The notes under the pieces are model-generated. The model ran no database searches and was not told the DNA's origin. It saw only the letters and a list, made by a program, of their open reading frames with translations. Below, in pieces: positions 7,890 to 63,304 of a stretch of 64,000 bases of DNA. Position 1 is the first letter of the stretch; each line of letters opens with the position of its first letter. The position numbers and the translations under genes were made by a program. Source of the stretch: Eledone cirrhosa (lineage: Eukaryota); the NCBI GenBank assembly GCA_964016885.1, contig CAXHJY010000001.1, forward strand, positions 682,001 to 746,000. Direction: 5' to 3'.

Positions 7890-10526
7890 TCAGCCAGTTC
7901 TCGCTGCCAGAGCATTCAACCGCTCTTCACTCATGGTACTATGCAAATAATTCTTTATCAGTTTGAGCCTGCTGAAGGTTCGCTCAGCCTGCGCCGAGCT
8001 AACCGGAATAGTTATGAACATTTTGTATAAGGCAAACACGTTCAGATAGGCTCTATCTAAGTCCTTAGAAATCATAAACGGAACGATCTCAGAACTCGAT
8101 ATGGATTTATCTAAACACACTTCCTTGTAAAAATCTTTGAATGATAAATATTCATCGAAGATAGTGTCATTTTCGATGTCACCCTCGTAGAATTTCGCAA
8201 GATTATCGATTCTCTCTTTATTGCATGTGTCGTCGTCGTCGAAGTGCGCCGGTATCAAGCACGAAAAATCCTTCACTAGACCGTGCAAGTCGGCAAAACG
8301 TTCGTTAAAGCTACTAATGATTCTATCTAGGATAGTGAAATAAACGTCCCGTTTAAAATGCTGACTCATCGTCTCATGAGGTTCGTCACTGGTATTTTCG
8401 TCATGAAAACGCTTCTTTTTTCTTTTCCGTTTTTCTGTTGTAAACTCTGGTTCAACTTGACATTGCTCGGCGAGATTTTTAGTGTCTGATAATGTTCGGT
8501 CAAAATATTCATTTGAGCGGATTTCTTCAATTTCTTTTACTACATTTTTAATCATGACGTCCGCGGAATATAAGTCGATAGCCTCCTTCTGCAAATATTG
8601 TGAAACAGAATGCAGCTTTTTAAGTAAATTCTGAAAAAACTTCAACATGAAAATGAATTCAAACTTGCTCACATTTAGTAGCAAACCTCTGGCCTCAGCT
8701 AATACTTTCGGAGCAGTGTTGCGAACATCCCCACTTACTATCCTCTCTAGTGCACTCATTACTGCCGGTAAGTTGTTAATGGTAGCCTCTACAGCCTGAA
8801 TGTGACTAAACCAGCGGGTATCTGAGAGTCGTTTTAATGTTAATACCGTTGAAATCAATAGTTTTTCTTGTTCTTCTTCGAGGATTTTCAGCCTTGGCAA
8901 GCTTGATGTTAAGAAAACATACAGGCTCTCCAATGTACCAAAAAATAATTTACCATCCATTGACGATTGGCTAGCATCGATTAACACCAGGTTCAGGTTA
9001 TGAGCACAACAATGGACGTAAACAGCTTTCGAAGAGCATCCCTCTTTAACTCTAGCCTGAAGCCCAGAAATATGGCCGGACATATTTGACGCTCCGTCGT
9101 AAGCTTGTCCTCTAATATATTGAGCATCCAAAGAAAGATCCTGGAAAAGAACTTTCACAAGCGTATCGAAAAATGATTCAGCGGCTGCTGATTTTAGTTC
9201 ACAAAATGACAGGAAACGCTCCTGTGCGTGGCCACTTTTCGATACATATCGGAGTGACACAGAGCATTGATCCTGATGCGAAATGTCTATTGTGGAATCG
9301 ACAATGACTGAATAGTATTTTGCCGCTTTCACTTCCGTGATTATTTGTTGAGTACATTCGTTCGCCAGGCATTCTATGAATTCGTTTTGTAATTTTGGAC
9401 TTAAGTACATAGGCTGTCTTTTAGTGCGCCCAGGTGAGAAGAAATGGCTTTCCAAGATCATATCATACTTGGCTATCAATTTCAACAATTCAATAAAGTT
9501 TCCTTCATTTTCTGATTTGGCGCCAAGTCCAGCATATTCCCTGTGACCTCTGAAGGCCAAGCCTTGTTTTGTGAGAAATAACGTACAATCAAGCAATCGC
9601 CCCAATATCTGGCGATTTCGTTCAATTCGCTTCTCTTCATGGATGAGGTTATCGATCACCGTTTTATTTGCGTCCAAACGATATTTTGTCATGAAGTATT
9701 GCTTTTGTGCATTGATGTGAATGGTACTTTTCTCATGATTGGCAATTTTTTCGATTCCCTTTTTGAAGTTTGCCATCCCACACTCTGGATTACCCCAAGT
9801 CTTCGAGTAAGATTCGGCATTTTTATCAGCAAACAGCCAACAACAAAAGCAATATAGTCTGTTGGATTCAGGAGAGTATACTAACCAGTGTCGGTCAACT
9901 TCATGGATTCCAGCACACTTTCTCTTGTACCAACTGATGTTGAATTTTCTGTGGTTCGAGTCGAGAGGGAAATCAGCAAAATGATCTTTCAATCCTGGCT
10001 GACAAGGACCAAAAGTCATGAGGGCACGAATTAGAGGTGTCGTCAATGGTCTGTCTTCGAAATGTTTCGGGTCGCTTGGATACTTCTCTTGTAAATTCAA
10101 CATGCACTCTACTGGCCCATGCTCTGGGATTTGTTTTGCCGATGTAGTTTCCTCTGAATCATTTTCATTTTCAGATTCCGATACAGCCATTTTTCCCTCT
10201 ATTGAGTTTGGATCCCCATTTGGAACTATATCTTCAGTGACTACGACGGTTGTTGAGATAGTCGATGGACCTGAGGCATCTTCGACGTCAGGTTCTCGCG
10301 ACTCTCCAGTGCTTTTCTGTTTCTCCAGTTCATCTGACCAGACCGACTCGCCGGAAATTCCGGCAGTTACATTGGTTTGGGATGCGTCACTACTTGTTGA
10401 CGAAGACTGTTGACTTTTCAGAAAACTTGTGATTAGATGACATTTCTTTGCAGATTCTTCCCTGGCAGCTTGTCTAGCTTCTTTCCTCTTTGTTGCTCCA
10501 GTCTTGTAATTTTTTTTAGGCAACAT
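7890..10526 (-). CDS. hAT transposase (TTF-type Zn finger, DUF4371-like region, DDE core, hAT dimerisation domain); extreme C-terminus frameshifted
   Basis: 878-aa ORF with WLVYS..LYCFCCWLF, LAFRGH, GNFIELL, VDSTIDIS, GQAYDGASNMSG, HCCAHNLNL, TRW and TIPVSSAQAERTFSRLKLIKN; the natural end ELAEKIDF...KHRKLEL* lies in another frame (stop at 7823-7825). Confidence 0.92.
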   Translation of the reverse strand: MLPKKNYKTGATKRKEARQAAREESAKKCHLITSFLKSQQSSSTSSDASQTNVTAGISGESVWSDELEKQKSTGESREPDVEDASGPSTISTTVVVTEDIVPNGDPNSIEGKMAVSESENENDSEETTSAKQIPEHGPVECMLNLQEKYPSDPKHFEDRPLTTPLIRALMTFGPCQPGLKDHFADFPLDSNHRKFNISWYKRKCAGIHEVDRHWLVYSPESNRLYCFCCWLFADKNAESYSKTWGNPECGMANFKKGIEKIANHEKSTIHINAQKQYFMTKYRLDANKTVIDNLIHEEKRIERNRQILGRLLDCTLFLTKQGLAFRGHREYAGLGAKSENEGNFIELLKLIAKYDMILESHFFSPGRTKRQPMYLSPKLQNEFIECLANECTQQIITEVKAAKYYSVIVDSTIDISHQDQCSVSLRYVSKSGHAQERFLSFCELKSAAAESFFDTLVKVLFQDLSLDAQYIRGQAYDGASNMSGHISGLQARVKEGCSSKAVYVHCCAHNLNLVLIDASQSSMDGKLFFGTLESLYVFLTSSLPRLKILEEEQEKLLISTVLTLKRLSDTRWFSHIQAVEATINNLPAVMSALERIVSGDVRNTAPKVLAEARGLLLNVSKFEFIFMLKFFQNLLKKLHSVSQYLQKEAIDLYSADVMIKNVVKEIEEIRSNEYFDRTLSDTKNLAEQCQVEPEFTTEKRKRKKKRFHDENTSDEPHETMSQHFKRDVYFTILDRIISSFNERFADLHGLVKDFSCLIPAHFDDDDTCNKERIDNLAKFYEGDIENDTIFDEYLSFKDFYKEVCLDKSISSSEIVPFMISKDLDRAYLNVFALYKMFITIPVSSAQAERTFSRLKLIKNYLHSTMSEERLNALAARTG

Positions 10527-10874
10527 TCTTAATGAGCACTATATTGACACAGTTGGAATAATGCAATTCGCTTGATTTGATATTCAACACCGAAGAATGT
10601 AAAACACGTCAAATAATCGACGAAAAACAAAACATAGAGCAAAAGTCCAGGAAATATATATATATATATAACAGATTAATCTACCGGAGTAAACGGTAGT
10701 GTCGAATCCGTATAGAGAACTCAATGTAATCCAAATGTGGAAAAATCATAAAAAATACATGTAGTTAATTAATAATGTAAAACAATTGGAAGACAGAGTC
10801 AAAATAAGACATTGAAAAACAATGAAAAATTAAACAAAGAACATGTTCTTCCTATTAATATTGATTTACACTTT

Positions 10875-18636: not shown

Positions 18637-21298
18637 TTAGCCAAAATGTCGACCAGATGCATAATTTGTACTTACCCGATAAACTTGTACGTATCCCATG
18701 GCGTGGGCCATCGGACTGTTCTTCCGGATTTGGTGTGCAGAATTTTCCGTGTTTGTGTCGGGCAAAATTGTTGGTGAGTCTGCTGGAGAAACGGTGGGTA
18801 CTGGTGGCAATTCCTGTTCTATGAACGCTTTTTTTAAACGATCAATGGAGACGGTATTTCGCTTCCCGTTCAAGTCGAGGACGAAATACTTAGGGCATTT
18901 CTGTATCACCTTGTAGGGCCCGGACGGAATACGGCGGACGAAGTTGCGATGGAATACCGTCATTTCTAACGAAAACATGCGTCCATGTATCGATGTCTTT
19001 TGGTATGTGTGAAGTAACGTGCTGTTTAGGGGCTGAAGGAGACAGATGCGACATTGATGACCGTAAACGGTGCACATATTTTGTAGGGTCTGGAAGTTCT
19101 TGTGGCGAAACAGGAGTGATCATTTGTCCGGGTAGAGTGAGTACGGTGCCATACACCATTTCAGCCGGAGAATGTCCGACTCCCTCTTTAACAGTGGAAC
19201 GAATACCAAGAAGAATGAGTGGGAGGTATTCGAACCAGTTAGTGGAGTCTTCGTAAGCCTTGATAGATGATTTTAGCTGGCGGTGTAAGCGTTCTACCAT
19301 GCCGTTAGCGGCAGGGTGATACGCTGTTGTACGGATGTGTTTGCACCCGAGGAGACGAGTCAGCTCGGTAAATAGATTCGAATCGAACTGACGTCCTCTA
19401 TCCGTAGTGATGGTCGCGGGTGTGCCGAAACGTGAAACCCAGTGAAACACTAACGTTTTGGCGACAGTTTCCGCAGTAATATCCGTCAGGGGAAAAGCTT
19501 CTGGCCAGCGAGAAAATCGGTCGACACAGGTGAGAAGATGAGTGTAGTTTTGAGAAGGAGGCAAAGGTCCAACTATGTCTATATGCACATGTTGGAACCG
19601 TGCATCAGGTGTTGCGATCGGGGCTTTGATGTGCCGGTGAATTTTCGCCTTCTGGCACGCGATGCAGTTCCTAGCCCATTCGCGGGTGTCCTTGTTGATG
19701 TTGGGCCACACAAAGCGGGCAACCATCAGTTTCTGCGTGGCGCGGACGCCAGGATGTACCAGAGCATGCAGTGTCGAGAAAACGTCGCGTCGATGTTTCC
19801 GGGGCACGTATGGGCGCTCGCGGCCTGTGGAGATGTCACACCAAATATAACCCGAAGAAGAGGGCAGCGGGCATTCCTTCAATTTCAAGGATGATTTCTG
19901 GAGTTGCAGCAGTTCCTCGTCATTCTGTTGATCCGCTGCAATCTTCTGGTGGTCGATAGTGGCAGTGGTGTGGATTGCGTTAAGCTCCATGCGCGATAGG
20001 GCATAAGCTGCTGAGTTGGTGGCACCCTTAATGTACCGAATATCAGTAGTGTACTGAGAAATGAAGTCCAGATGTCGGACCTCCCTGGGTGAGTGTCGGT
20101 CAGGCTTGGCATTGAACGCGTACACTAGTGGTTTGTGGTCGGTGTATATAGAGAACACACGGCCTTTTAACATGTGTCGAAAATGCTTGACAGCAAGGTA
20201 TGCTGCCAATAATTCACGACTAAATGTGCTATACTTAGTTTCGGCGGGTTTTAATTGCTTAGAGAAAAAAGATACAGGTCGCCAAATATCGCCAGAGAGT
20301 TGTTGAAGCACACCTCCAACTCCGAAATCGGATGCATCAGTCAATAAACACATTGGGGCGTCAGGTTTGGGGTAACTCAGCATTGTAGCCTCGGACAACA
20401 TTTTCTTCAACTCAGCGAAAGCGGTATATTCTTTTTCGCTGAGCTTGATGTTTGCGTTTTTGGTTGTACGCTGCCGCAGCAAATCTGTGAGTGGTTGGGC
20501 TGTCTCTGCACAGTGGGGTATACATCTTCTGTAGAAGTTTACCAGGCCAAGAAATTCTCGCAGTTTGCGGAGAGATATAGGTTGTGGAAAATCAATGATG
20601 GATTTGAATTTCTCCTTAAGTGGGCGAATACCATCTTTGTCAATGATGTGTCCCAGAAAATGAAGGGACGCAACTCCGAACTCACATTTGCTGGGGTTGA
20701 TAACAATTCCATATTCACGCAAACGTGTGAATAGGAGATCCAGGTGTTTCTCATGTGCTTCATCGGAGCTGCTGGCCACCAGTAAGTCGTCAATGTATGC
20801 GTATACAAAAGGTAGACCCCTGGTGACTGTATCGATGAATCGCTGGAATGTCTGCGCTGCATTTCGCAAACCGAAAGGCATACGCAGAAATTCGAACATT
20901 CCAAAGGGTGTTGTGACGGCGGTCTTTGGAATATCTGCGGGCTCAACGGGTATCTGATTGTAAGCTCGCACAAGATCGATCTTCGAAAATATGCGAGCCC
21001 CATGCAGCGAGCTAGAGAAGTCCTGTAGATGAGGCACTGGATAAGAGTTAGGAACGGTGCAGTTGTTCAGTGCACGGTAGTCGCCACAGATTCGCCAGTC
21101 GTTCGACGACTTCTTGGGTACACAGTGTATGGGTGAGGACCAGTTGCTGCTGGACGGACGTATGATGCCGAGATCCAGCATGTGCTGAAATTCTTGTTTG
21201 ACGGACTTCAGCCGGTCTGGTGGTAGCCTTCTAGGTCGTACAGCGACAGGTGGGCCGTGTGTTATTATGCGAACTGCGCTTGGATGTGCGCGAACCAC
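18637..21298 (-). pseudogene. Gypsy pol (RT, RNase H, integrase)
   Basis: [56 protein letters not shown] and GMVERLH; the GPY..DRLK tail is shifted to another frame by a TCCG duplication near 18920-18928. Confidence 0.92.
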
Positions 21299-21448
21299 AG
21301 TGTTAGATCGTGCACCCAGAATGGTGGAATTCTTAATGTAAATGCCGCCCTCACTGCCATTTCTGCCGTAGATGAATCGTCGTGTGCTAGAGACTTCGTT
21401 TGTAGTGGATGATCAGAAGTTGTGTGTCTGTTTTACGGGGTCACCAGT

Positions 21449-22319: not shown

Positions 22320-25300
22320 TCATCATCATCATCATCTTCGTTTAACGTCCATTTCCCACGCTAGCATGGGTTAGACGGGAGTTGAGGCAAGGCTGGTCGG
22401 GTGACCGTGTCTCACTCATATAGAACTATCTGGCAGGTTTTCTACGGCTGGATGCCCTTCCTAACACCAACCACATTTACAGTGTGGAACTGGGAACTTT
22501 TTACCGTGTTACCTACACGACCACATTACAGCGTGGACTGTGTGTGTTTTTTTTTCCGTGACACCTACACGAACTCGATTTCATTTTCTCATGCTGTTGG
22601 TGGGAGTGGGAGGATAAGGTAGGGGTAGTTTATTGGGATGTATATTTGGTTAAGAGGTGCCTACTGACTGTAGGTTTCGCTTTGTACATAGGCAAGGCGG
22701 GTCTTCTGTATTACTGCATAGCACCAAAGATCTCAGTCCAGAGACATTGTCTTAGAGAGATGTAAGTGTGTGAGGTCAGAATTTATCAGATCATCCCAGG
22801 TTTTTCTGGGTCTACCTACTCCGTAACTACCATCAATTTTGATCGCCCTGCACTTTTTTATACAACTGTCGTCTTTCATGCGCATCACATGGCCATACCA
22901 ATGTAGTCTTCTCTCAAGTAAACAGCATCTGATCCCTCTTATTCCTAATTTCTAACTTAGTTCATTTATGCTTTGCCGTTCACGTATATTACTATTACAC
23001 ATCCAACGGAGCATGCATGCTTCGTTCCTTTCCAGCCTACACAGTTCCTCTGCAGGTAATGCCCATGCCTCACTGCCATGTAGCATTGCTGTTTGTATAC
23101 AGGCATCATACAATCTGCCTTTCATTTTTAGAGAGAAACCTTTTGTGGCCAACAGCAGTATAAGCGCTCTGAACTTTTTCCATCCCGTTCTGACTCTGGC
23201 TACTGTACTTTCAGAACACCCTCCACCACTGTTGATTTCGTCACTCAGGTAACGGAAAGTGTCTGCTTTTTCTATAGAACCATCTGGGCAATGGAAGGAG
23301 CTAGTATCCTTTGGACACTTGCTACTTATTGCACCTGAGCATTGGCCACATATAAAGTCTACGTTCTTAGATAGTTTACCTGTGATCCCACTACATCTTT
23401 TATGCACCCATACTTTGCATTTGGGACATAAAATGGAATTTCTGCCTACTCCTTTCCTACACACTGAGCATGGCCATTTCCTTGAGGGCACCTGTGCCCT
23501 ATTTTCCTTTCTACAAACTAGAACTTTAGTCTTAGACAAGTTAACTTTATGGCCTTTTGATTCTAGGCCATGCTTCCATGTTTCGAATTTCTTCTCTAGT
23601 TCAGCCATTGATTCAACTATGAGCGTTAGATCATATGCGTATAGGAGTTCCCATGGGCAGCGGGTCTTGAACTCCTCTGTTATAGCCTGAAGGGCAATAA
23701 TAAATAAGAGGGGGCTAAGGACAGAGCCTTGATGAACGCCAACTTTTACACTAAATTCTTCACAATATTCATTGTTAATTCTAACCTTACTGACTGTTTC
23801 ATTATACATAGCTTGTATAGCTCTCACCAGCCATTCATCTACATCTAGTTTTCTAAGAGCCCACCAGATAATGGAGCGGGGGACTCTGTCAAAAGCTTTC
23901 TCCAGGTCTACAAAAGCTAAGTAGAGGGGTTTTCTTTTAGCTAGGTACTTCTCTTGTAGTTGTCGTACAAGGAAAAGAGCGTCTGTGGTACTTTTACCTG
24001 ACACAAACCCAAACTGCATTTCATCTAGATCAATTCGCTCTCTGATTAGTTGCGCTATTACTCTTTCTGTGACCTTCATGACCTGGTCAACTAACTTAAT
24101 GCCTCTATAGTTTCCCCTATCTAGAGCATCCCCTTTACCCTTGTAGCAGTTAATGATGATGCTGCTACAGTCTTTCGGTATGACCCCATTCTGTATTACT
24201 TGGTTAACTATACGGGTGACCATAGTGTGTCCCGCCATACCAGATGCCTTCAACATCTTAGCAACTACCTCCGAAGGCCCAGCTGCCTTGCCTGTCTTCA
24301 TATCTTTGATTGCCTTACTTATTATACTACCTTTACCTTGCACCATTGGATCGATTTGGGGCAGACTATCTTTTTCCCATTTATTCTTCTCATTTAATAG
24401 TCTCTCGTAGTGCCACTTCCAGGCTTATCAGTATCAGTGAGCGCAAGTACACCATTATCATTACGGACACACTTCTCCCCGACAATATCACGGTTTTCCT
24501 TGACACATTGTCTAGCAATCCTGAACACCTCACGTTTTTGGTCCTCACGTTGCAGAACATGCTTGAACTTTCTATCCTCTGCTACCCTTTTTGCAAGGTA
24601 CACTTGTCTCCTAGCTTCTCTCCTGGCCACTTGATAGTGCTCTCTACTTCCCCCGTCCTGCCATTCTTTCCAAGCCTGCTTTTTGGCCTTGATTGTCTCT
24701 TCCACCTCACTGTTCCACCACCAAGTTACTCTCCTCCTGCCAATAGGTCTACTCCAGCCACAGATTTCATCCGTTGCTTTCAGCAGGTTCACTTTCAAGA
24801 ATTGCCACTGTTCCTCTCTATTGCACGTCTCTAATTGCTCTTCCTTATTGTCAAAGGCAACAAATAATAAGCTTTTAAATTTGTCACTGGCTATGGGGTC
24901 CTTCAACTTCCATATTCTTCTCCTCAAGGTAGGCCTCCTCTGTCGTCGAGTACGTCTATTCCTGTCTATGAGGTCACTAACTACTAAGCGATGTTGCGAG
25001 GTGCATTCTTCACGGGGGAGGGATTTAGAGTTTACAACAGACATTTTGTCCCGTCTTCTAGTAAGGATATAATCTATCTGGCTGGCGTGTTCCCCTGATC
25101 TATAGGTGATTAAATGGTATTCACGTTTTTTTAAGTTTGTGTTACATATAGTTAGGCTATTTGCATCACTGAATTCTAGGATTCTGAAACCCTCCTCATT
25201 TCTATTTCCAATCCCATAGCCTCCATGGATTCCATCATAGCCATCACTATGTTGTCCAACGTGACTGTTTAGATCGCTAGCAATAATTAAGTAGTCACTT

Positions 25301-25858
25301 TCGGTTATTTGGGAGGTAGTGTGCATTAGCATCTAATAGAACCTGTCCTTTATAACATCAGGTAGACCAGATTGGGGTGCATAAGGAGATATTATTGTCA
25401 CAGTAATTCTATTTAGAACTAGTCTTAATTCAATTATTCTGTCATTCACTATATTTACGTCATTACCTTATCTACCCATTTTTCAGCTAACATAATTCCT
25501 ACACTACCCTGTCTGTTGTCATTTCCCACCCAGAAAAGTTTATAGCATCGTTTTTTACCCACGATGAATCTGGCAGATCCCCCTCCTCACCTAGCCTCTT
25601 GAATACAACAAACATCAACTTCTTTACGTTCAAGCATCTCTACAACCTCATTTGAGCGACCTTTCAATGTGCCTACGTTCATGGTACCAACTCTGAAGTT
25701 GGGAGGGTGGGATGGATGGGTTGGAGGGACAGGGAGGGGTGTGGGAGACGGGATTTTGTTGGTCATCTGTGTCTGAAATAAAGAGGGGTCCTTGTATTCT
25801 CGTCTTGCAGCAGGAGGTGAATTTGTCTTTATCTGTGACATTGTCATTGAGTGCCATA
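22320..25858 (-). mobile_element. Near full-length RTE-clade LINE (APE endonuclease + RT), frameshifted and stopped
   Basis: ORF pieces 25587-25943 (VGTMNVGTL, CCIQE), 24394-25332 (SQIDYIL, SQHRLVV) and 22952-24346 (FVDLEKAFD, QGSVLSP, YAYD); 3' UTR and (GAT)n tail. Confidence 0.92.
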
Positions 25859-25992
25859 CGTACATATATATATGTGTGCATGTATGTATATATATATACA
25901 TACTACTGTACGCCTGTATACATATATGTATGTACGTATACATACTTATATTTAAGTAACAGCCGCACTAAGAGTGAGAAATATATATATAT

Positions 25993-28156
25993 ATGAAGGT
26001 AGCTTGGAAGTGTCACTATGAAAGGCTACTAAATGAGGAGAATAAATGGGAGAAAGACAGTCTCCCCCATATCGACCCAATAGAGGGACCAGCAGTGTTA
26101 GTCGAGGGGAGTATAATAAGTAAGGCAATCAAGGATATGAAGACGGGTAAGGCGGCTGGGCCTTCGGAAATAGTTGCTGAGATGCTGAAGGCATCTGGCA
26201 CGGTGGGACACACCATGGTCACCTGCATAGTTAACCAAGTCGTACAGAATGGGGTTGTTCCGAAGGACTGGCATAGCAGCATCATCGTTAACTGTTATAA
26301 GGATAAAGGAGACGCCCTAGATAGGAGTAACTATAGAGGCATTAAATTAATCGACCAGGTCATGAAGGTCACGGAAAAAGTAATAGCGCAACTAATCAGA
26401 GAGAGAATTGACCTAGATGAAATGCAGTTCGGGTTTGTGTCAGGCAAAGGTACTACAGACGCTCTTTTCATAGTACGACAACTACAGGAGAAGTACCTAG
26501 CTAAAGGTAAACCGCTCTACTTAGCTTTTGTCGACTTGGAGAAAGCCTTCGACAGAGTCCTCCGCTCCATTATCTGGTGGGCTCTTAGAAAACTAGGCGT
26601 TGACGAATGGCTTGTGAGGGCTATACAAGCCATGTATAAAGAAACAGTCAGCAAGGTTAGAATTAACAACGAATATAGTGAAGAGTTTAGCGTAAAAGTT
26701 GGCGTCCATCAGGGCTCTGTTCTCAGCCCCCTACTATTTATTATTGCCCTTCAGGCTATAACAGAGGAGTTCAAGACAGGCTGCCCATGGGAACTCCTAT
26801 ACGCAGACGACCTGACACTCATAGCGGAATCAATGGCCGAGCTAGAGAAGAAATTCCAAACATGGAAGCACGGCCTAGAGTCAAAAGGACTTAAAATTAA
26901 CCTGGCTAAGACCAAAGTTCTAGTTTGTAGGAAAGAAAACAAGGCGGCAGTCCCTTCTGGGAAATGGTCGTGCTCGGTGTGTAGGAAAGGCGTAGGTAGA
27001 AACTCCATTTTATGTCCTAAATGCAAAGTATGGGTGCATAAAAGATGTAGTGGGATCACAGGTAAGCTAACTAAGAACATAGATTTTACATGTGGCCGGT
27101 GTTCTGGTGCAATAAGTAGCAGCAAGTGCCCACAAAATACTAGCTCTTTCAATTGCGCAGAGGGTTCTATAGAAATAGTGGACAGCTTCCGTTACCTGGG
27201 CGATAAAATCAGCAGTGGGGGAGGGTGCTCTGAAAGTACTGTAGCTAGAGTCAGAACTGGTTGGAAAAAGTTCAGAGAGCTTATACCACTATTAGCTGCT
27301 AAAGGGTTCTCCCTAAAAATGAAAGGCAGGTTGTACGATGCCTGCATACGAACAGCAATGTTGCATGGCAGTGAGACCTGGGCATTGTGTGCAGAGGATA
27401 TACGCAGACTAGAGAGGAACGAAGCTTGCATGCTCCGCTGGATGTGTAACAGTAATATACGTGAACGGCAAAGCATAAACGAACTAAGGAAAAAATTAGA
27501 GATAAGAGGGATCAGATGTTGTTTACTCGAGAGAAGGCTACGTTGGTATGGACACGTGATGCGCATGAAAGTCGATAGCTGTATAACAAAGTGCAGGGCA
27601 ATAAAGATAGACGGTAGTCACGGAATAGGCAGACCTAGAAAAACCTGGGACGAGCTGATAAACTCCGACATCACACACTTACACCTCTCCAAGACAATGT
27701 CACTGGACCGAGACCTTTGGCGGTACTCAGTAACAGAGAAGACCCGCCTTACCTAAATATATAGTAAAACCTACTCCAGCCAGTAGGCATCTCTAACAAA
27801 ATACACCCCGTCCCACCCCCACCACCCCCACCCCATCCACACCACCCCGTTCTATGTAAAGTTATGTTGGTGCCACGCCATCCAGGCCGAAACAAATGAG
27901 ATCGTGTAGGTGTCACGACAAAAAAACACACAGTCCACGCTGTAATGTGGCCGTGTAGGCAACACGGTAAAAACCTCCCAGACCCACACTGTAAATGTGG
28001 TTGGTGTTAGGAAGGGCATCCAACTGTAGAAAACCTGCCAGACAGTCCTATGCGAGCAAGACAATCACTCTTGCCTCAAGTGGGACTACCCCCGTCCAAA
28101 CCCATGCAAGCGTGGAACACGGACGTTAAACGTTGATGATGATGATGATGATGATA
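25993..28156 (+). mobile_element. 5'-truncated RTE-clade LINE with open RT ORF
   Basis: 587-aa ORF 25993-27756 with YADD and a PHD-like insert; 3' UTR ends (GAT)n then (TA)n. Confidence 0.93.
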
Positions 28157-54825: not shown

Positions 54826-57470
54826 ATCATCATCATCATCATCATCACCGTTTTACGTCCGTTCTTCCACGCTAGCATGGGTTAGACGGGTTGTCCTGTT
54901 GTGGGCAGTGTCTGGTCGGCTGACCATGCCTTGCTCATACAGGAACTGATCTGGCTTGATTTCTACAGCTGGATGCCCTTCCTAACACCAACCTCATTTA
55001 CAGTGAGTGCTGGGTGCTTTTTTGTGGCGCCTACACGTCCACTTTACAGTGTGGGCTGGGTGCTTTTTTGCCGTGGCACCTCCACGACCACCTTGCGGTG
55101 GGGGGGGGGGGCATATTGTTTATATGCTTCAGCATGTACCCATGGGAGGTCGGGTACCCTGTATTACTGCGTGACGCCAGAAGTCACGGTCGTGTGTCAT
55201 TGACTTTGAGAGGTGTAGTTGGGTAAGGTCGGCTTTTATCACCTCATCCCAAGTCATCTTGGGTCTCCCCACTCCGCGGTTTCCATCAACTTCTAGTGCT
55301 CTGCACCTTTTTATGCAGCTGTCATCCTTCATACGCATCACATGTCCATACCAGCGTAACCGCCTCTCCTGCACGCAGCATTTGATTCCTCTTATGCTCA
55401 GTCTCTCTCTCAATTCATTTATGCTTTGTCGTTCACGTATATTACTGTTACACATCCATCGGAGCATGCAGGCTTCGTTTCTCTCTAATCTACGTAAGTC
55501 TTCCACCTTCAGCGCCCAGGTCTCACTACCATGCAACATCGCTGTTCGGATACACGCATCATACAGTCTGCCTTTCATTCTGAGGGAGAAGCCTTTTGCA
55601 GCTAGCAGTGGTAGTAGTTCCCTAAACTTCTTCCATCCCGTTCTTACCCTAGTTATTGTACTTTCTGCGCACCCACCTCCGTTGCTAATTCGGTCACCTA
55701 GGTAGCAGAAGCTGTCTACTGTTTCTACAGGGCCCTCCCAGAGATTGGTGGTACTTGTTTCCTGTGGCTGTTTGCTTGCTGTTTCAGCACAGCTGCTGCA
55801 TGTGAATCCTACATTCTTAATTAAGCTTCCTGAGATCCCGCTACATCTCTTGTGTACCCATTGTTTGCATTTGGGGCAAAGAATGGAGTTCCTACCTACA
55901 CCTTTCCTACATACTGAGCAAGGCCATTTCCCTGAGGGGATCTGGGTTCTGTTTTCTCGTCTACTTATAAGGACCTTAGTCTTTGTCATGTTGACTTTGA
56001 GGCCCTTTCTCTCTAGTCCCTGCTTCCAGGTTTGGAATTTATTCTCTAGTTCTACCATAGATTCAGCTATGAGTGCGAGGTCATCAGCATACAGGAGTTC
56101 CCATGGGCATCCGGTCTTAAACTCCTCTGTTATTGCCTGCAGGACTATGATGAACAGGAGAGGGCTAAGAACAGAGCCCTGGTGGACCCCAACCTGTACG
56201 CTAAATTCCTCGCTATACTCATTGCCAATCCTAACTTTGCTGACTGCTCCCCTATACATGGCTTGTACCGCTTTCACAAGCCATTCATCTACTCCTAGTT
56301 TTCTAAGAGCCCACCAGATTACTGCACGTGGAACTCTGTCAAAGGCTTTCTCAAGGTCGACAAATGCCAAGTAGAGTGGCTTACTTTTAGCTAGGTACTT
56401 TTCTTGTAATTGCCTCACAAGGAAGAGCGCATCAGTGGTGCCTTTCCCTGGTACAAACCCAAATTGCATCTCGTCTATATTCACCCGGTCCCTAATCAGC
56501 TGTGCTATAACTCTTTCTGTTACTTTCATGACCTGGTCCATCAACTTTATACCTCTATAGTTTCCTCTATCTAGTGCATCGCCTTTACCTTTGTAGCAGT
56601 TGACAATGATGCTACTGCACCAATCTTTTGGTATGGCCCCCTCTAGTATTACCTGGTTAACGATACGTGTGGTTATAGTGTGACCTACAGACCCAGATGC
56701 CTTCAGCATCTCGGCAGCTATACCCGATGGACCGGTTGCCTTCCCTATCTTCATATCTCTGATTGCCTTACTTACTACGCTGCCGCTGACTTGTACTGCT
56801 GGTCCCTCTATAGGGTCTACGTGGGGTAGGGTCTCTTCTTCCCATGCATTCTCCTCATTTAGTAATCTATCATAATGACTCTTCCATGCATCTTTCTTCT
56901 CAGCACTTGTGAGGGCAAGCTCACCTTTATCATTCCGGATACACTTCTCTCCAATGACATCACAACTATCTCTGACACACTGCCTCGCAATCTTGAATAC
57001 CTCCTGTTTCTGGTCCTCACGTTGTAAAACATGCTTGAATTTTCTATCCTCTGCTTCCCTCCTAGCTAAGTATACTTGTCGCCTAGCTTCCCTCTTGGTC
57101 TCTATGTAATGTACCCTGCTCCCCCCGTTCTTCCATTCTTTCCATGCCTGTCTCTTGGCCTTGACTGCTTCATCTACCTTATTGTTCCACCACCAAGTCA
57201 CTCTCCTCCTGCTTGAGGTCTTACTCCAGCCACAAACCTCATCCGTCGCCTCTAGTAAGTTATTTTTTAGGAACTCCCAGTTCTCTTCTACGTTAAATGT
57301 CTCTATCTGTTCTTCTTTACTGTCGTAGGTGTTGAGTAAAATATCTTTAAATCTGTTACTGGTTGAGGGGACTTTCAGCTTCCAGATCTTTCTTCTCCAG
57401 GTTGGCCTCTGTTTCAGGGCTCGTCTAGTTCTGACCGTGAGGTCGCTGACAACTAAGCTATGTTGGGATG
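54826..57470 (-). mobile_element. 5'-truncated RTE-clade LINE with uninterrupted RT ORF
   Basis: ORF 55129-57537 (real homology starts at SQHSLVV) with YADD and a PHD-like insert; (GAT)n tail; both ends lie in (TA)n. Confidence 0.93.
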
Positions 57471-57754
57471 TACATATATATATATATTTATATATACATA
57501 TATATGTGTGTGTGTGTGTATAATAATAATAATACAATGACGATTTGTTAAGCCTTCATTACATTTATTGATTGGTGATGCACGTTTTGCTATTGCTCAG
57601 CTCAAAGTTTGATCAGTATTGATCTAGCCAGACTGAGGAATCAAAAGGTCGTCGGACCTCTGCTGTTGTAATGATGGACGAGAATCTAAAGATTGAGTGC
57701 TCACCTGGGTGAACCTACAGTAACTTCATGTTACACTCCCTGGATATATATATA

Positions 57755-58082
57755 TATATCAACTAGAAATAGATTGACATAGATATATATTTAAAATAAA
57801 CACATGAAACAATGACAGGGGATAATTTGTAAAGTGTGTAATCACACATAGCTAGGTAGGTAACTAATTAAAGTTTAACTAGAGCTTCAAATATTACCTT
57901 TTTAAAAAATAATTAAAAAATGATTAATTTTTTAAAAAGGAAATATTTGAAGCTCTAGTTAAACTTTAATTAGTTACCTACCTAGCTATGTGTGATTACA
58001 CACTTTACAAATTATACCCTGTCATTGTTTCATGTGTTTATTTTAAATATATATATATGTCAATCTATTTCTAGTTGATATA
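57755..58082. repeat. Long inverted repeat (~155-bp arms)
   Basis: ATATCAACTAGAAATAGATTGACAT... mirrored as ...ATGTCAATCTATTTCTAGTTGATAT. Confidence 0.92.
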
Positions 58083-58224: not shown

Positions 58225-58404
58225 TATAAATAATTACAACAGTGACATAAACAGGTACTCAAGTTTCGTTGGGTTCTCGGCCCCAAATTTCTTCAGCCTG
58301 TCATGAGGAAAATGGAAAACATCTCATGACAGGCTGAAGAAATTGGGGCCCAGAACCCATTCAAACTTGAGTACCTGTTTATGTCACTGTTGTAATTATT
58401 TATA
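58225..58404. repeat. Inverted repeat (~83-bp arms), each arm with a degenerate hammerhead motif
   Basis: ACAGG-CTGAAGA...(G/C)AAA-CTTGAG-TA-CCTGT on - (58251-58301) and + (58329-58378). Confidence 0.8.
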
Positions 58405-58676: not shown

Positions 58677-58814
58677 TGTGTCCTGTAGGAAAGTTTGGTC
58701 CCAGCTGTAGTAGAAATTGTCACTGTGCAGACAACAGCAAATGTAACACAGAGACAGGTGTGTGTTACAGTGGAGGGTGTACTGCTGGTTATGAAGGTAG
58801 CAACTGTCAGACAG
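58677..58814 (+). CDS. EGF-like exon (138 bp, phase 1-1)
   Basis: TAG|..CPVGKFGPSCSRNCHCADNSKCNTETGVCYSGGCTAGYEGSNCQT|GTAAGT. Confidence 0.92.
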
Positions 58815-59036: not shown

Positions 59037-59077
<41 letters not shown>

Positions 59078-59080
<3 letters not shown>

Positions 59081-59645
59081 ATTGTGTATACATATAGTTA
59101 TTCTTTTAATTTCCAATTGAGTTCTTATACACGTGGTTAATAGCTAACAGGTTTAAATGACCAGCGTGTATATTGTTTTATTTTAAGATGACCTCCCCTT
59201 ACCCTCTTGGGGACAGCGTGTATTTTATCTTTGAGAGGACTGCTGGATTTTCTAAGCGCTGGATCTTCTTAGCGCTGAGGGAGACCATCACTAATCTATT
59301 AATGTCGATATAATTCTTATATCGATATTATTTGGGCATCCACTGATGAGTTTATAAGAGCCCGCTTGTGTATAAAACTATGGATTATATACAAGTTTCT
59401 ACATAACCTGGAAATTATTTATCCCGAATTGTAGAAATCTTATAAGGAAACGGCCGTCTGGAAGGAAAGAGATATTTAGTTAATAATGTCTCATATAAAA
59501 TAATACAACCAGCTATCCACGAAATACTGATTAGTTAGCACCCCAAACACTAAATTAGGAAAATACTTAGGTATATCCTAATGTTTGTTGAGTGAGATGG
59601 AGTTGGTCAGAGTATCGCTTAAGGCTTTCTCTGTTTATGTATTGA
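59078..59645 (+). repeat. ~570-bp direct repeat, copy 1 (Penelope pseudo-LTR/retrozyme-like)
   Basis: Highly similar to 60382-60952; contains a hammerhead. Confidence 0.85.
59339..59462 (+). ncRNA. Type I hammerhead ribozyme motif with branched stem II
   Basis: TCCA-CTGATGA-GTTTATAAGA...TCTTATAAG-GAAA-CGGCCG-TC-TGGA. Confidence 0.75.
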
Positions 59646-59700
59646 ATATATACTCTTGGTGGCCAGATATGATTTCCAGATATAAGGTATGACTCTCTTT

Positions 59701-60250
59701 CATCATCATCATCATCATCATTATCATCGTTTAACGTCCATCTTCCACGCTTGCATGGGTTTTGACGGGAGTTTTCCCACTTGAGGCAATATTCGTTGTC
59801 CTGCTCGTATAGGACTGACTGGCAAGTTTTCTATGGCTGGATGCCCTTCCTAACACCAACCACGTTTACAGTGTGGACTGGGAGGTTTTTACCGTGTTAC
59901 CTACACGGCCACATTACAGCGTGGACTGTGTGTTTTTTCTGTTGTGACACCTACACAACCTCATTTGTTTCGGACTGGATGTTGTGGTACCAACATAACT
60001 TCACATTTAAGGGGGTGGTGTGGATGGGGTGGGGTAGTGGGACAGGGGTGTATTTTGTTAGAGGTGCCTACTGACTGTAGGTTTCGCTTTGTACTTAGGC
60101 AAGGCGGGTCTTCTGTGTGGCGCCAAAGATCTCGGTCCAGTGACATTGTCTTGGAGAGGTGTGAGGTCGGAATTTATCAAGTCATCCCAGGTTTTTCTGA
60201 GTCTGCCTGCTCCGTGGCTACTGTTTATTTTTATCACCCTGCACTTTATT
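59701..60250 (-). mobile_element. RTE 3' fragment
   Basis: (CAT)n start; matches 22320-22860 with deletions. Confidence 0.85.
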
Positions 60251-60381
60251 ATTATTATTTTTTATATGAAATACTGATTGATCTTCCTTGTATCCCATGT
60301 CTGATTTAGCCTTAGAGAGTGGCTGTGTGTGTATATGGGGGATCCATACATGTATTTATTATGTGTTATCTCTATGTGTGC

Positions 60382-60952
60382 ATTGGTTGTGTATACATAT
60401 AGTTATTCTTTTACTATCCAATTGAGTTCTTATACATGTGGTTAATACCTAACAGGTTTAAATGACCAGCGTATATATTGTTTTATTTTAAGATGACCTC
60501 CCTTTACCCTCTTGGGGACAGCGTGTATTTTATCTTTGAGAGGACTGCTGGATTTTCTGAACTACCAGTCTCTTCTTAGCGTTGAGGGAGACCATCACTA
60601 ATCTATTAATGTCGATATAATTCTTATATCGATATTATTTGGGCATCCACTGATGAGTTTATAAGAGCCCACTTGTGTATAAAACTATGGATTATATACA
60701 AGTTTCTACATAACCTGAAAATTATTTATTCCAAATTGTAGAAATCTTATAATGAAACGGCCGTCTGGAGGGAAAGAGATATTTATTTAATAATGTCTCA
60801 TATAAAATAATACAACCAGCTATCCACGAAATACTGATTAGTTAGCACCCCAAACACTAAATTGGGATAATACTTAGGTATATCCTAATGTTTGTTGAGT
60901 GAGATGGTGTTGGTCAGAGTATCGCTTAAGGCTTTCTCTGTTTATGTATTGA
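60382..60952 (+). repeat. ~570-bp direct repeat, copy 2
   Basis: Highly similar to 59078-59645. Confidence 0.85.
60646..60769 (+). ncRNA. Type I hammerhead ribozyme motif with branched stem II
   Basis: TCCA-CTGATGA-GTTTATAAGA...TCTTATAAT-GAAA-CGGCCG-TC-TGGA. Confidence 0.78.
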
Positions 60953-60992
<40 letters not shown>

Positions 60993-61070: not shown

Positions 61071-61408
61071 ATGGCTTAGTGGTTAGAGCATTGGCCTTGC
61101 AATCGAAAGGTTGTGAGTTCAATTCTCAAACCAGGTGATGTGTTGTTTCCTTGAGCAAGACACTTTATTTCACATTGCTCCAGTTTACTCAGCTGTAGAA
61201 ATGAGATGATAGGGATTGCGGTCCCTATCATTCCACTGCAAAGTGGTCGTGGAGGTGCCACAGCAAAAAAGCACCCAGCACTCACTGTAAATAAGGTTGG
61301 TGGTAGGAAGGGCATCCAGCTGTAGAAATCAAGCCAGAATCAGTTTCCGTCCCACCCTCGCAACCAGGGAAAAGTGGACGTAAAATGATGATGATGATGA
61401 TGATGATA
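61071..61408 (+). mobile_element. tRNA-derived SINE with RTE-derived 3' end
   Basis: TGGCTTAGTGG A-box, GAGTTCAATTC B-box, RTE-like 3' UTR and (GAT)n tail. Confidence 0.85.
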
Positions 61409-61794: not shown

Positions 61795-61932
61795 TCTGTA
61801 AAACAGGTAAATTTGGAGCCAACTGTAAATACACATGTCACTGCGCAGATAACAGCAGGTGTAACAAAGAGACAGGTGTGTGTTCAGGTGGAGGATGTGC
61901 TGCTGGTTATGAAGGTAGCAACTGTCAAACAG
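61795..61932 (+). CDS. EGF-like exon (138 bp, phase 1-1)
   Basis: CAG|..CKTGKFGANCKYTCHCADNSRCNKETGVCSGGGCAAGYEGSNCQT|GTAAGT. Confidence 0.92.
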
Positions 61933-62223
61933 GTAAGTACTGTAGTACAGATTTGTTTCTAACTTGATATATGAAACAAAACAACAGCAGGTGTAAAAAA
62001 ACAGACAGAGACAGGTGTGATGCTGGTTATGATGATATAGATATAATACAGATGATATAGATATAATACAGATGATATAGATATAATACAGATGATTAGA
62101 TATAATATATAGGATATAGATATCATATAGGTTGTAGAGATATAGTATAGATGATAGATGACAACACTATATCATCATCATCTTCGTATAACGTACATCT
62201 TCCACACCAGCATGGGTTAGACT

Positions 62224-62548
62224 CATCATCATTTTACGTTCGCTTTTCCCTGCTTGCAAGGGTGGGACGGAAACTGATTCTGGCTTGATTTCTACAGCTG
62301 GATGTCCTTCCTAACACCAACCTTATTTACAGTGAGTAGTGGGTGCTTTTTTGCCATGGCACCTCCACGACCACTTTACAGTGGAATGATAGGGACCCCA
62401 GTCCCTATCATCTCATTTCTACAGCTGAGTAAACTGGAGCAATGTGAAATAAAGTGTCTTGCTCAAGGAAACAACACATCACCCGGTCTGAGAATTGAAC
62501 TCACAACCTTTCAATTGCAAGGCCAATGCTCTAACCATTAAGCCATGT
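62224..62548 (-). mobile_element. Same SINE family as 61071-61408, opposite orientation
   Basis: Reverse complement aligns over its whole length. Confidence 0.85.
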
Positions 62549-62647: not shown

Positions 62648-62784
62648 TCTGTAAACAGGTAAATTTGGACCCAACTGTAAATACACATGTCACTGTGCTG
62701 ATAACAGCAGGTGTAACAAAGAGACAGGTGTGTGTTCTAGTGGAGGATGTGCTGCTGGTTATGAAGGTAGCAACTGTCAGACAG
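62648..62784 (+). CDS. EGF-like exon duplicate with 1-bp deletion in an A-run (137 bp)
   Basis: TCTGTAAACAGG versus TCTGTAAAACAGG in the paralogous exon; splice sites intact. Confidence 0.75.
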
Positions 62785-62947
62785 GTAAGTGGTGTAGTAT
62801 AGCTTTGTTTCTAACTTAATATATTGGGTTATTACATGGAAGGGAAACATGTATGCTACATGTGTTAGAAGTGACATGATTTATCGGAGCAAGGAGCTGT
62901 CCTTCGACCACATACTCATGCAGAACATTCCATATTTTTATTTTCAG

Positions 62948-63102
62948 GGTGTAAAGCAGGTAAATTTGGACCTAACTGTAAACACACATGTCACTGTACT
63001 AACAACAGCAGGTGTAACAAACAGCTAGATGTAACACAGAGACAGGTGTGTGTTCCAGTGAAGTGTGTGGTGATGGTTATGAAGATAGCAACTGTAAGAC
63101 AG
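62948..63102 (+). pseudogene. EGF pseudo-exon (17-bp internal duplication, donor degraded)
   Basis: CKAGKFGPNCKHTCHCTNNSRCN followed by inserted AAACAGCTAGATGTAAC; donor reads GTGTGT. Confidence 0.75.
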
Positions 63103-63304
63103 GTGTGTTACAGTAGAGGGTGTGGTGCTGGTTATGAAGAAGTGGTACATAGTTTCTGTTACTTGCAGTGGATGAAGGTGTTCTGAAAGCACAGTAGCCA
63201 GTGTGAGAATGGGTTGAAGAAAGGTCAGTGAGCTACTAAATCCCCACCCCTCACCCATGCCCCTAAATCTACCTCCTCAATCCCCATGCAACTGCCCCAC
63301 TCAA

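What the first reader, a model, noticed from the sequence alone, without database searches (positions are those of the whole stretch)
59078..60952. Tandem hammerhead repeats with branched stem II: retrozyme/circRNA-like unit in an intron
Seen: two ~570-bp direct repeats, each with CUGAUGA/GAAA, palindromic CGGCCG and GUC (sites after 59458 and 60765). Stem II opens into two further hairpins (CTTGTGTATAA/TTATATACAAG and TTTCTACA/TGTAGAAA). An RTE fragment lies between the copies; without it the monomer would be ~750 nt. Known: tandem minimal hammerheads dimerise to cleave, and retrozyme monomers circularise. Inference: sense-strand transcription of the host gene could excise a ~1.3-kb RNA and sever the intron; the multibranched stem II is atypical.
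Basis: partly seen in the sequence, partly recalled or inferred. Interest (0 to 1): 0.74.

Follow-up and report, generated by a model that had tools for sequence, protein, structure and literature searches.

The report
Long-armed hammerhead retrozyme copy in intron
This is one aged, interrupted copy of an abundant non-coding repeat that carries a hammerhead RNA motif (predicted to cut itself) with an unusually large, conserved two-hairpin side arm; the family likely spreads by borrowing Penelope-type retrotransposon enzymes, the start points of its copies pile up just behind the predicted cut, and nothing found here shows that this copy harms its host gene.

Summary
Observation confirmed: two 568-570 bp repeats (95% alike), each with a type I hammerhead whose 97-nt stem II is a three-way junction, with an antisense RTE fragment between them. 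The unit is a dispersed family with a 760-765 nt monomer (534 exact 26-mer hits) and at least two sister families. Copies share one 3' end, sit in (TA)n, are 5'-truncated and form partial tandems: Penelope-like insertion marks, no ORF. Across three families 7 of 37 pairs change on both sides, in stem I and all three stem II helices; loop III stays palindromic. 5' ends pile up 0-23 nt behind the predicted cut (11 of 85 vs 2.8 expected; 10 of 22; sister family 7 of 48, but 2 of 22 in a fourth sample), while 72 of 98 copies read through it. Verdict: non-autonomous Penelope-type retrozyme, new structural variant. The intron-severing 1.3-kb RNA is unsupported: this copy has G-G and G-U at pair 10.1-11.1; no RNA data. 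The scan already noted long-armed hammerheads and cut-site junctions on other DNA of this genome.

The parts
59040..59077 (.). (TA)n target tract, 5' flank
   Evidence: 74 of 98 sampled copies have TATA/ATAT within 10 nt of the 5' junction
59078..59645 (+). 5'-truncated monomer (repeat 1, pseudo-LTR), ending at the family's fixed 3' point
59339..59462 (+). Hammerhead 1, type I: stem I 59339-42/59459-62, CUGAUGA 59343-49, stem II base 59350-59/59438-46, GAAA 59447-50, palindrome CGGCCG 59451-56, predicted cut after 59458; G-G mismatch at 10.1-11.1 (59350/59446)
59365..59395 (+). Stem II side hairpin 1 (P2b)
   Evidence: pair probability 0.99; 2 pairs change on both sides across three families
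59396..59437 (+). Stem II side hairpin 2 (P2c)
   Evidence: pair probability 0.86; 2 pairs change on both sides
59646..59700 (+). Head of the full monomer (sequence that follows the fixed 3' point in tandem copies)
   Evidence: same junction in 22 unrelated loci
59701..60243 (-). Later insertion: 5'-truncated RTE LINE 3' end with (ATC)n tail, CTTT target duplication (59697-59700, 60244-60247)
   Evidence: absent at this site in 21 of 22 junction loci that run straight through and in the 12 sample loci that show the site
60244..60952 (+). Rest of the full monomer, including repeat 2 (60383-60952) and the fixed 3' end 187 nt behind the predicted cut
60646..60769 (+). Hammerhead 2, predicted cut after 60765; G-U at 10.1-11.1
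60953..60990 (.). (TA)n target tract, 3' flank
   Evidence: 93 of 93 terminal 3' ends in the sample are followed by TATATA
58677..58814 (+). Upstream host exon, EGF-like repeat (138 nt)
   Evidence: Pfam EGF_STAB1-2 E=1.5e-4, below the curated cut-off
61795..61932 (+). Downstream host exon, EGF-like repeat (138 nt)

Best explanation
The stretch is a 1.75-monomer insertion in a (TA)n tract of a non-coding, dispersed repeat family with a 760-765 nt unit and a long-armed type I hammerhead, later interrupted by an RTE fragment, and the family is likely a retrozyme copied by a Penelope-like retrotransposon enzyme. Shown: the monomer, the fixed 3' end, TA targets, 5' truncation, tandem copies, covariation, and the pile-up of 5' ends behind the predicted cut. 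Inferred mechanism: a multimeric transcript is made; two hammerheads pair through their palindromic loop III (or a protein helps) and cut only part of the time; a Penelope-type RT-endonuclease nicks (TA)n DNA and starts reverse transcription at a fixed internal point 187 nt behind the cut; on a template whose upstream ribozyme has cut, the cDNA runs off at that end (the pile-up), and on an uncut or re-ligated circular template it reads through and can go round again (partial tandems; 4.6 units in a sister family). A fully cut linear monomer could only give a 187-nt stub, so read-through templates must be the main ones. The copy in this window is most likely a passive relic with weakened ribozymes and little effect on splicing.
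For: Family size: 2654 candidates, 534 exact 26-mer hits, 2349 hits of the sister-family motif. Architecture: 93 of 93 terminal 3' ends followed by TATATA, 72 of 98 read through the cut, 13 of 98 longer than a monomer; sister family 60 of 60 with TATATA at the 3' end, five hammerheads head to tail in one array. No ORF above 38 aa (family A) or 56 aa (B). Covariation: 5 of 37 pairs in two families, 7 of 37 in three, covariation score 0.173 vs 0.025-0.064 for slid controls; N7 of the core varies U/A while the other core bases stay. Loop III self-duplex -15.5, -11.4, -16.1 kcal/mol for three variants. 5' ends within 23 nt behind the cut: 11 of 85 vs 2.8 expected (binomial 1e-4, scan statistic 0.019), 10 of 22 in tandem copies (2e-7), three exactly at the cut; sister family 7 of 48 vs 1.8 (0.002); TA microhomology does not explain it in family A. 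The genome holds many GIY-YIG elements (10596 candidates, 150 scored), one with a 938-aa RT+GIY-YIG frame. Partial tandems, (TA)n bias and internal RT initiation are described for Penelope-like elements (PMC8557442, PMC11167929).
Against: No autonomous element sharing the ends was found in the 50 GIY-YIG loci examined or beside sampled copies. No cleavage or RNA data. The monomer's best predicted fold pairs the core with the cut site, and the best two-strand fold is not the active dimer. The pile-up did not replicate in the sister family's tandem-junction sample (2 of 22, P=0.19); in that family the window behind the cut is TA-rich; exact-cut TATA junctions number 4 against 0 and 2 at two control sites; another pile-up of 15 ends at 406-448 nt from the 3' end is unexplained. 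Covariation rests on three related families, so on a few events. Tandem copies are barely more alike than unrelated ones (94.1 vs 92.6%, P=0.06), so a single circular template is not shown. Only 2 of 100 loci show an inverted hit, unlike many Penelope insertions.
Confidence: 0.8

Rival explanations
1. The repeats are the 3' ends (pseudo-LTRs) of an autonomous Penelope-like element whose ORF was not sampled, not a separate non-autonomous unit.
For: Same fixed 3' end, TA targets and hammerhead position as autonomous elements (PMC8557442); most copies are short 3' stubs.
Against: Copies that pass the monomer start continue into the same 3' end again in 22 loci and 13 of 98 sampled; none continues into an RT frame.
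Confidence: 0.1
2. One reading: host transcription lets the two hammerheads dimerise, excise a 1.3-kb RNA that circularises, and sever the intron with an effect on the EGF-repeat gene.
For: Sense orientation in a GT-AG intron; both cores, stems I and palindromes are intact; the two-repeat form is kept in seven paralogous places.
Against: G-G and G-U at 10.1-11.1 (C in 11949 of 11968 depth units of other copies); paralogues are 97-99% identical, so retention is recent duplication; six paralogues have one repeat only; hammerhead-cut introns were spliced normally in a cited in vivo study (PMC2995048 passages); 8 of 9 tested frog retrozyme dimers did not cut (10.64898/2026.07.22.740005).
Confidence: 0.1
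3. The hammerhead is catalytically idle and the branched stem II is only a conserved protein-binding or packaging structure; the 5'-end pile-up comes from RT stalling or TA microhomology.
For: Predicted folds trap the core; a stable hairpin lies just behind the cut; other pile-ups exist; cleavage was dispensable for insertion in vitro (PMC11167929).
Against: Core bases are invariant except N7, stem I covaries, loop III stays palindromic through double changes; RT would meet the large hairpins upstream of the cut, yet ends pile up before the cut and are absent for about 30 nt after it in family A.
Confidence: 0.15

Closest known systems
Metazoan non-LTR retrozymes (Cervera and de la Pena 2020, PMC7229834, passages read; Li, Clavereau and Pollet 2026, 10.64898/2026.07.22.740005, parts 1-3 of 5 read, supplements closed)
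   Same: Non-coding tandem unit with one type I hammerhead, low GC (33-34%), monomers, dimers and multimers, co-occurring with Penelope-like elements.
   Different: Unit is 700-765 nt (170-400 nt in PMC7229834; 51-972 bp in the preprint); mostly dispersed 5'-truncated copies; hammerhead has a 97-nt branched stem II and only a 4-bp stem I; circular RNA not shown here.
Minimal, dimer-type hammerheads in Penelope pseudo-LTRs (Cervera and de la Pena 2014, PMC4209133, passages read)
   Same: Short helix I (4-5 bp), enlarged helix II, tiny palindromic helix III, predicted need for a dimer or protein.
   Different: Helix II there is 6-8 bp with a simple loop; here it opens into two further hairpins supported by covariation.
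Neptune, Hydra and Naiad clade Penelope-like elements (Craig et al. 2021, PMC8557442: passages, section 11, supplement part 2 with File S2) and non-autonomous Chlamys elements such as MRC1
   Same: (TA)n targets, fixed 3' end, 5' truncation, partial tandems forming pseudo-LTRs, hammerhead near the 3' end.
   Different: No ORF; no partner identified; the File S2 hammerheads have stem II plus loop of at most about 55 nt, none listed as branched; inverted 5' copies are rare here.
PAc Poseidon element, internal RT initiation (Frangieh et al. 2024, PMC11167929, parts 1-2 of 4 read)
   Same: Fixed genomic 3' ends at a point inside the RNA, AT-rich targets, hammerhead that may need protein.
   Different: That study found cleavage dispensable in vitro and no RNA reads ending at the cut; here genomic 5' junctions are enriched behind the predicted cut.

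Membership tests
Hammerhead ribozyme, type I | Core CUGANGA, GAAA, NUH with three helices, open stem I | tested here: met
   stem I covaries
Hammerhead ribozyme, type I | Paired 10.1-11.1 at the base of stem II | tested here: inconclusive
   met in the family (G-C) and sister (A-U); not met in window copy 1 (G-G), wobble in copy 2
Hammerhead ribozyme, type I | Match to an Rfam hammerhead model | tested here: not met
   no hammerhead family among 20 hits at E<=1; the long stem II is the likely reason (inference)
Hammerhead ribozyme, type I | Self-cleavage at the site | not testable with these tools
   only indirect: 5' junction pile-up (not)
Dimer-type (Penelope/newt-like) hammerhead | Very short stem III with palindromic loop | tested here: met
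   CGGCCG, CGATCG, GACGTC, CGAGTCG variants; self-duplex energies
Non-LTR retrozyme | Head-to-tail monomers, each with a type I hammerhead | tested here: met
   765-nt spacing; five units in a sister array
Non-LTR retrozyme | Non-coding, dispersed, high copy | tested here: met
Non-LTR retrozyme | Accumulates as circular RNA | not testable with these tools
   no RNA holder listed; only contigs of runs not on record as RNA were laid
Non-autonomous Penelope-like element | Fixed 3' end, 5' truncation, partial tandem, (TA)n target | tested here: met
Non-autonomous Penelope-like element | 3' sequence shared with an autonomous Penelope-like element | tested here: inconclusive
   none in 50 GIY-YIG loci, a small part of 10596 candidates; Hydra-clade frames were not searched genome-wide
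Autonomous Penelope-like element | RT plus GIY-YIG frame | tested here: not met
Plant LTR retrozyme | Type III hammerhead in true LTRs, 4-bp target duplication | tested here: not met
   type I motif, repeats are partial tandems in (TA)n

The most novel reading that the evidence does not exclude
A clade of 700-765 nt animal retrozymes uses a hammerhead with a conserved three-way-junction domain in stem II as a gated ribozyme: it cuts in living cells only part of the time, the cut sets the 5' end of a class of new genomic insertions, and uncut or re-circularised RNA gives the full-length and multimeric copies. The genome would then hold a direct record of hammerhead cleavage during Penelope-driven retrotransposition, and the extra domain would be the handle for the protein or partner that switches it.
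Probability: 0.4. Interest if true: 0.72.

Novelty: new variant of a known kind. Interest (0 to 1): 0.52.

Why it matters
What hammerheads do in Penelope-like elements is stated as unclear (PMC8557442), and the one in vitro study found cleavage dispensable and no RNA ends at the site (PMC11167929). Here the fixed RT start lies 187 nt behind the cut, so each genomic copy records whether its template was cut: about one in eight ends there, most read through. That makes the question countable from a genome and testable with one short RNA. The branched stem II, missed by Rfam, also means that descriptor searches undercount hammerheads in such genomes. The copy in this window itself is probably of little consequence.

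Tried and rejected
Rfam scan: no hammerhead hit. Search for an autonomous partner: BLAST and a covariance model over 50 GIY-YIG loci gave only a separate stub of the sister family; tblastn with three Penelope-type frames near sampled copies gave only unrelated neighbours; long-stem hammerheads near RT frames in L093, L098, L107, L108 were separated from them by TA tracts or lay on the other strand, so no link is claimed. Expression: no RNA holder listed; the four runs laid are contigs and show only presence. Two-strand folding did not return the active dimer. Within- versus between-tandem identity was inconclusive. The reading that the repeats are LTRs around the RTE was rejected: the RTE is antisense, has its own target duplication and is absent in other copies. 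The look-up of earlier findings by this sequence gave nothing. Paper searches for a branched natural stem II or for 5' junctions at the cut (passages of PMC3088659) showed none, but cover only the open library; bioRxiv supplements were closed, and figure supplements of PMC4209133, PMC7229834 and PMC3088659 were not read.

Full report
Observation. The two repeats lie at 59078-59645 and 60383-60952, 95% alike, between two (TA)n tracts. Each holds stem I UCCA/UGGA, CUGAUGA, a 97-nt stem II region, GAAA, CGGCCG and GUC, with the predicted cuts after 59458 and 60765 as stated. The two side hairpins are well predicted (0.99 and 0.86-0.87) and the motif folds better than shuffles on the + strand (z -2.6, -2.8) but not on the - strand (-1.1). 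Rfam lists no hammerhead here. The flanking 138-nt exons encode EGF-like repeats with GT-AG on +, so the motif is sense to the host intron.

The family. A search of the own genome gave 2654 candidates, 40 scored; an exact 26-mer near the 3' end occurs 534 times. The junction behind repeat 1 recurs in 22 loci outside the host paralogues; 21 of them run straight on where the window has the RTE, which fixes the monomer at 763-765 nt. The RTE piece is antisense, has a CTTT target duplication and matches the 3' end of RTE frames in the window: a later insertion. I took the first 100 listed matches of the 26-mer as a sample blind to the 5' end and dropped two (one duplicate, one failed anchor). All 93 terminal 3' ends are followed by TATATA; 74 of 98 5' junctions have TA repeats beside them; 13 of 98 copies are longer than one monomer. 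There is no frame above 38 codons. These are the marks described for Penelope-like elements: partial tandems, pseudo-LTRs, (TA)n bias (PMC8557442, passages and section 11), and fixed ends from RT initiation inside the RNA (PMC11167929, parts 1-2). A 2026 preprint argues that animal retrozymes are non-autonomous Penelope derivatives (10.64898/2026.07.22.740005, parts 1-3).

Sister families and covariation. A 74%-alike stub led to family B (708-nt unit, 1252 candidates; one array of five hammerheads), and a shared 3' motif to families C and D (2349 exact hits outside family A). With A and B, 5 of 37 pairs change on both sides; with A, B and C, 7 of 37: one in stem I, two at the base of stem II and two in each side hairpin, 94% of cells paired against 30-45% for slid controls. 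The core is invariant except N7. Loop III changes but stays self-complementary, with duplex energies of -11 to -16 kcal/mol. The limits: the structure was drawn from these sequences, the changes are few events in related families, and the count of two-sided pairs does not exceed the shuffle control (172 of 500). The predicted monomer fold pairs the core with the cut site, and the best two-strand fold is not the active dimer, so activity needs a partner or protein and is not shown. Other, unrelated hammerheads with 60-116 nt stem II regions turned up in fetched loci. In the published table of Hydra and Chlamys hammerheads none is this long or branched, and eight paper searches showed no natural branched stem II, within the open library only.

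5' ends and the cut. The fixed 3' end lies 187 nt behind the predicted cut. In the blind sample 11 of 85 first-round 5' ends fall within 23 nt behind the cut against 2.8 expected (binomial 1e-4; 0.019 when any window may be the highest), followed by about 30 nt with none; the window is not TA-rich. Among tandem copies 10 of 22 end there, three at the exact base. In family B's blind sample 7 of 48 do, against 1.8 (59 of 61 loci usable, a few of family D); that window is TA-rich, though 42 other windows as rich average 1.0 end. Against: family B's tandem-junction sample gave 2 of 22 (22 of 30 loci used, P=0.19); exact TATA-to-cut junctions number 4 versus 0 and 2 at two control sites; a second pile-up at 406-448 nt is unexplained. 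Most copies read through the site (72 of 98; 42 of 59). My inference: a minority of templates had been cut, and the rest were uncut multimers or circles. The two cannot be told apart here; tandem copies are only slightly more alike than unrelated ones. PMC11167929 found cleavage dispensable in vitro and no RNA ends at the site in its element, so a genomic trace is of interest.

Partner. The genome has many GIY-YIG elements, including a 938-aa RT+GIY-YIG frame with a zinc-finger-like linker, but none of the 50 examined shares the ends. Mobilisation by a Penelope-type enzyme is inferred from insertion marks.

This copy. The same insertion, RTE included, lies in seven paralogous places on three other contigs, and six further paralogues hold one repeat only, with copy-1 markers and a copy-2 3' end, likely by recombination between the repeats. 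Copy 1 has G-G at pair 10.1-11.1, where other copies have C, copy 2 has G-U; this pair is described as the most conserved after 15.1-16.1 (PMC3088659, passages). Passages of PMC2995048 report that an intron cut by a hammerhead was spliced normally while a faster ribozyme blocked splicing. No RNA run was listed.

Earlier scan notes. I had the pile-up and covariation before the look-ups. The look-ups showed that long-armed hammerheads, cut-site junctions and other retrozyme families had been noted on other DNA of this genome, none on a look-alike of this sequence; they pointed me to the Hydra clade. The label 'octopus-like' for the genome comes from those notes and was not tested.

Verdict. Real feature; a non-autonomous Penelope-type retrozyme family with a new structural variant of the hammerhead. 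Interest 0.52; novel case 0.4 probable, 0.72 if true.

Noticed in passing
L008-L013 (paralogous introns on contigs C20 and C27): Six paralogues keep a single 575-bp repeat with the same 5' junction, mostly copy-1 markers and a copy-2 3' end: likely a solo unit made by recombination between the two repeats.
   Followed up: partly
window 62648-62784: The third EGF-like exon is 137 nt, one base short of its neighbours, so it shifts the frame; 62947-63140 holds a rearranged exon copy. The host gene may be partly decayed.
   Followed up: partly
L045:-, L093:-, L098:-, L105:+9318, L107:-, L108:-, L115:+365, L185:+823, L236:+1198: Several unrelated hammerhead families with 89-116 nt stem II regions and mostly palindromic loop III (CGATCG, CACGTG, CAGTACTG).
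   Followed up: partly
L290:1636-1733 (-), L339, L359: Sister-family copies that lost one side hairpin or part of stem II: natural deletion variants for tests.
   Followed up: no
family A, 406-448 nt upstream of the fixed 3' end (about window 59198-59240): A second pile-up of 5' ends (15 of 98), unexplained; could mark a transcription start or an RT stop.
   Followed up: no
window 59300-59331 and 59468-59491: A perfect 14-bp hairpin lies just before the hammerhead and an 8-bp hairpin just behind the cut; both have counterparts in family B.
   Followed up: no
window 57755-58082 and 58225-58404: Two long perfect inverted repeats (156 and 65 bp arms) in the previous intron, of the head-to-head kind seen for Penelope ends.
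   Followed up: no
window 61071-61394 and 62223-62546: Two tRNA-derived SINE copies in opposite orientation, 95% complementary, flank the downstream exon.
   Followed up: no
window 7890-10538, 18890-21412, 22952-27756, 55129-57555: Long transposon frames: hAT-like transposase, Gypsy-like pol and several RTE frames (labels recalled from motifs).
   Followed up: no
L105 and L096: Neptune-like RT-GIY-YIG elements present as perfect head-to-head palindromes of about 3.3 kb.
   Followed up: no
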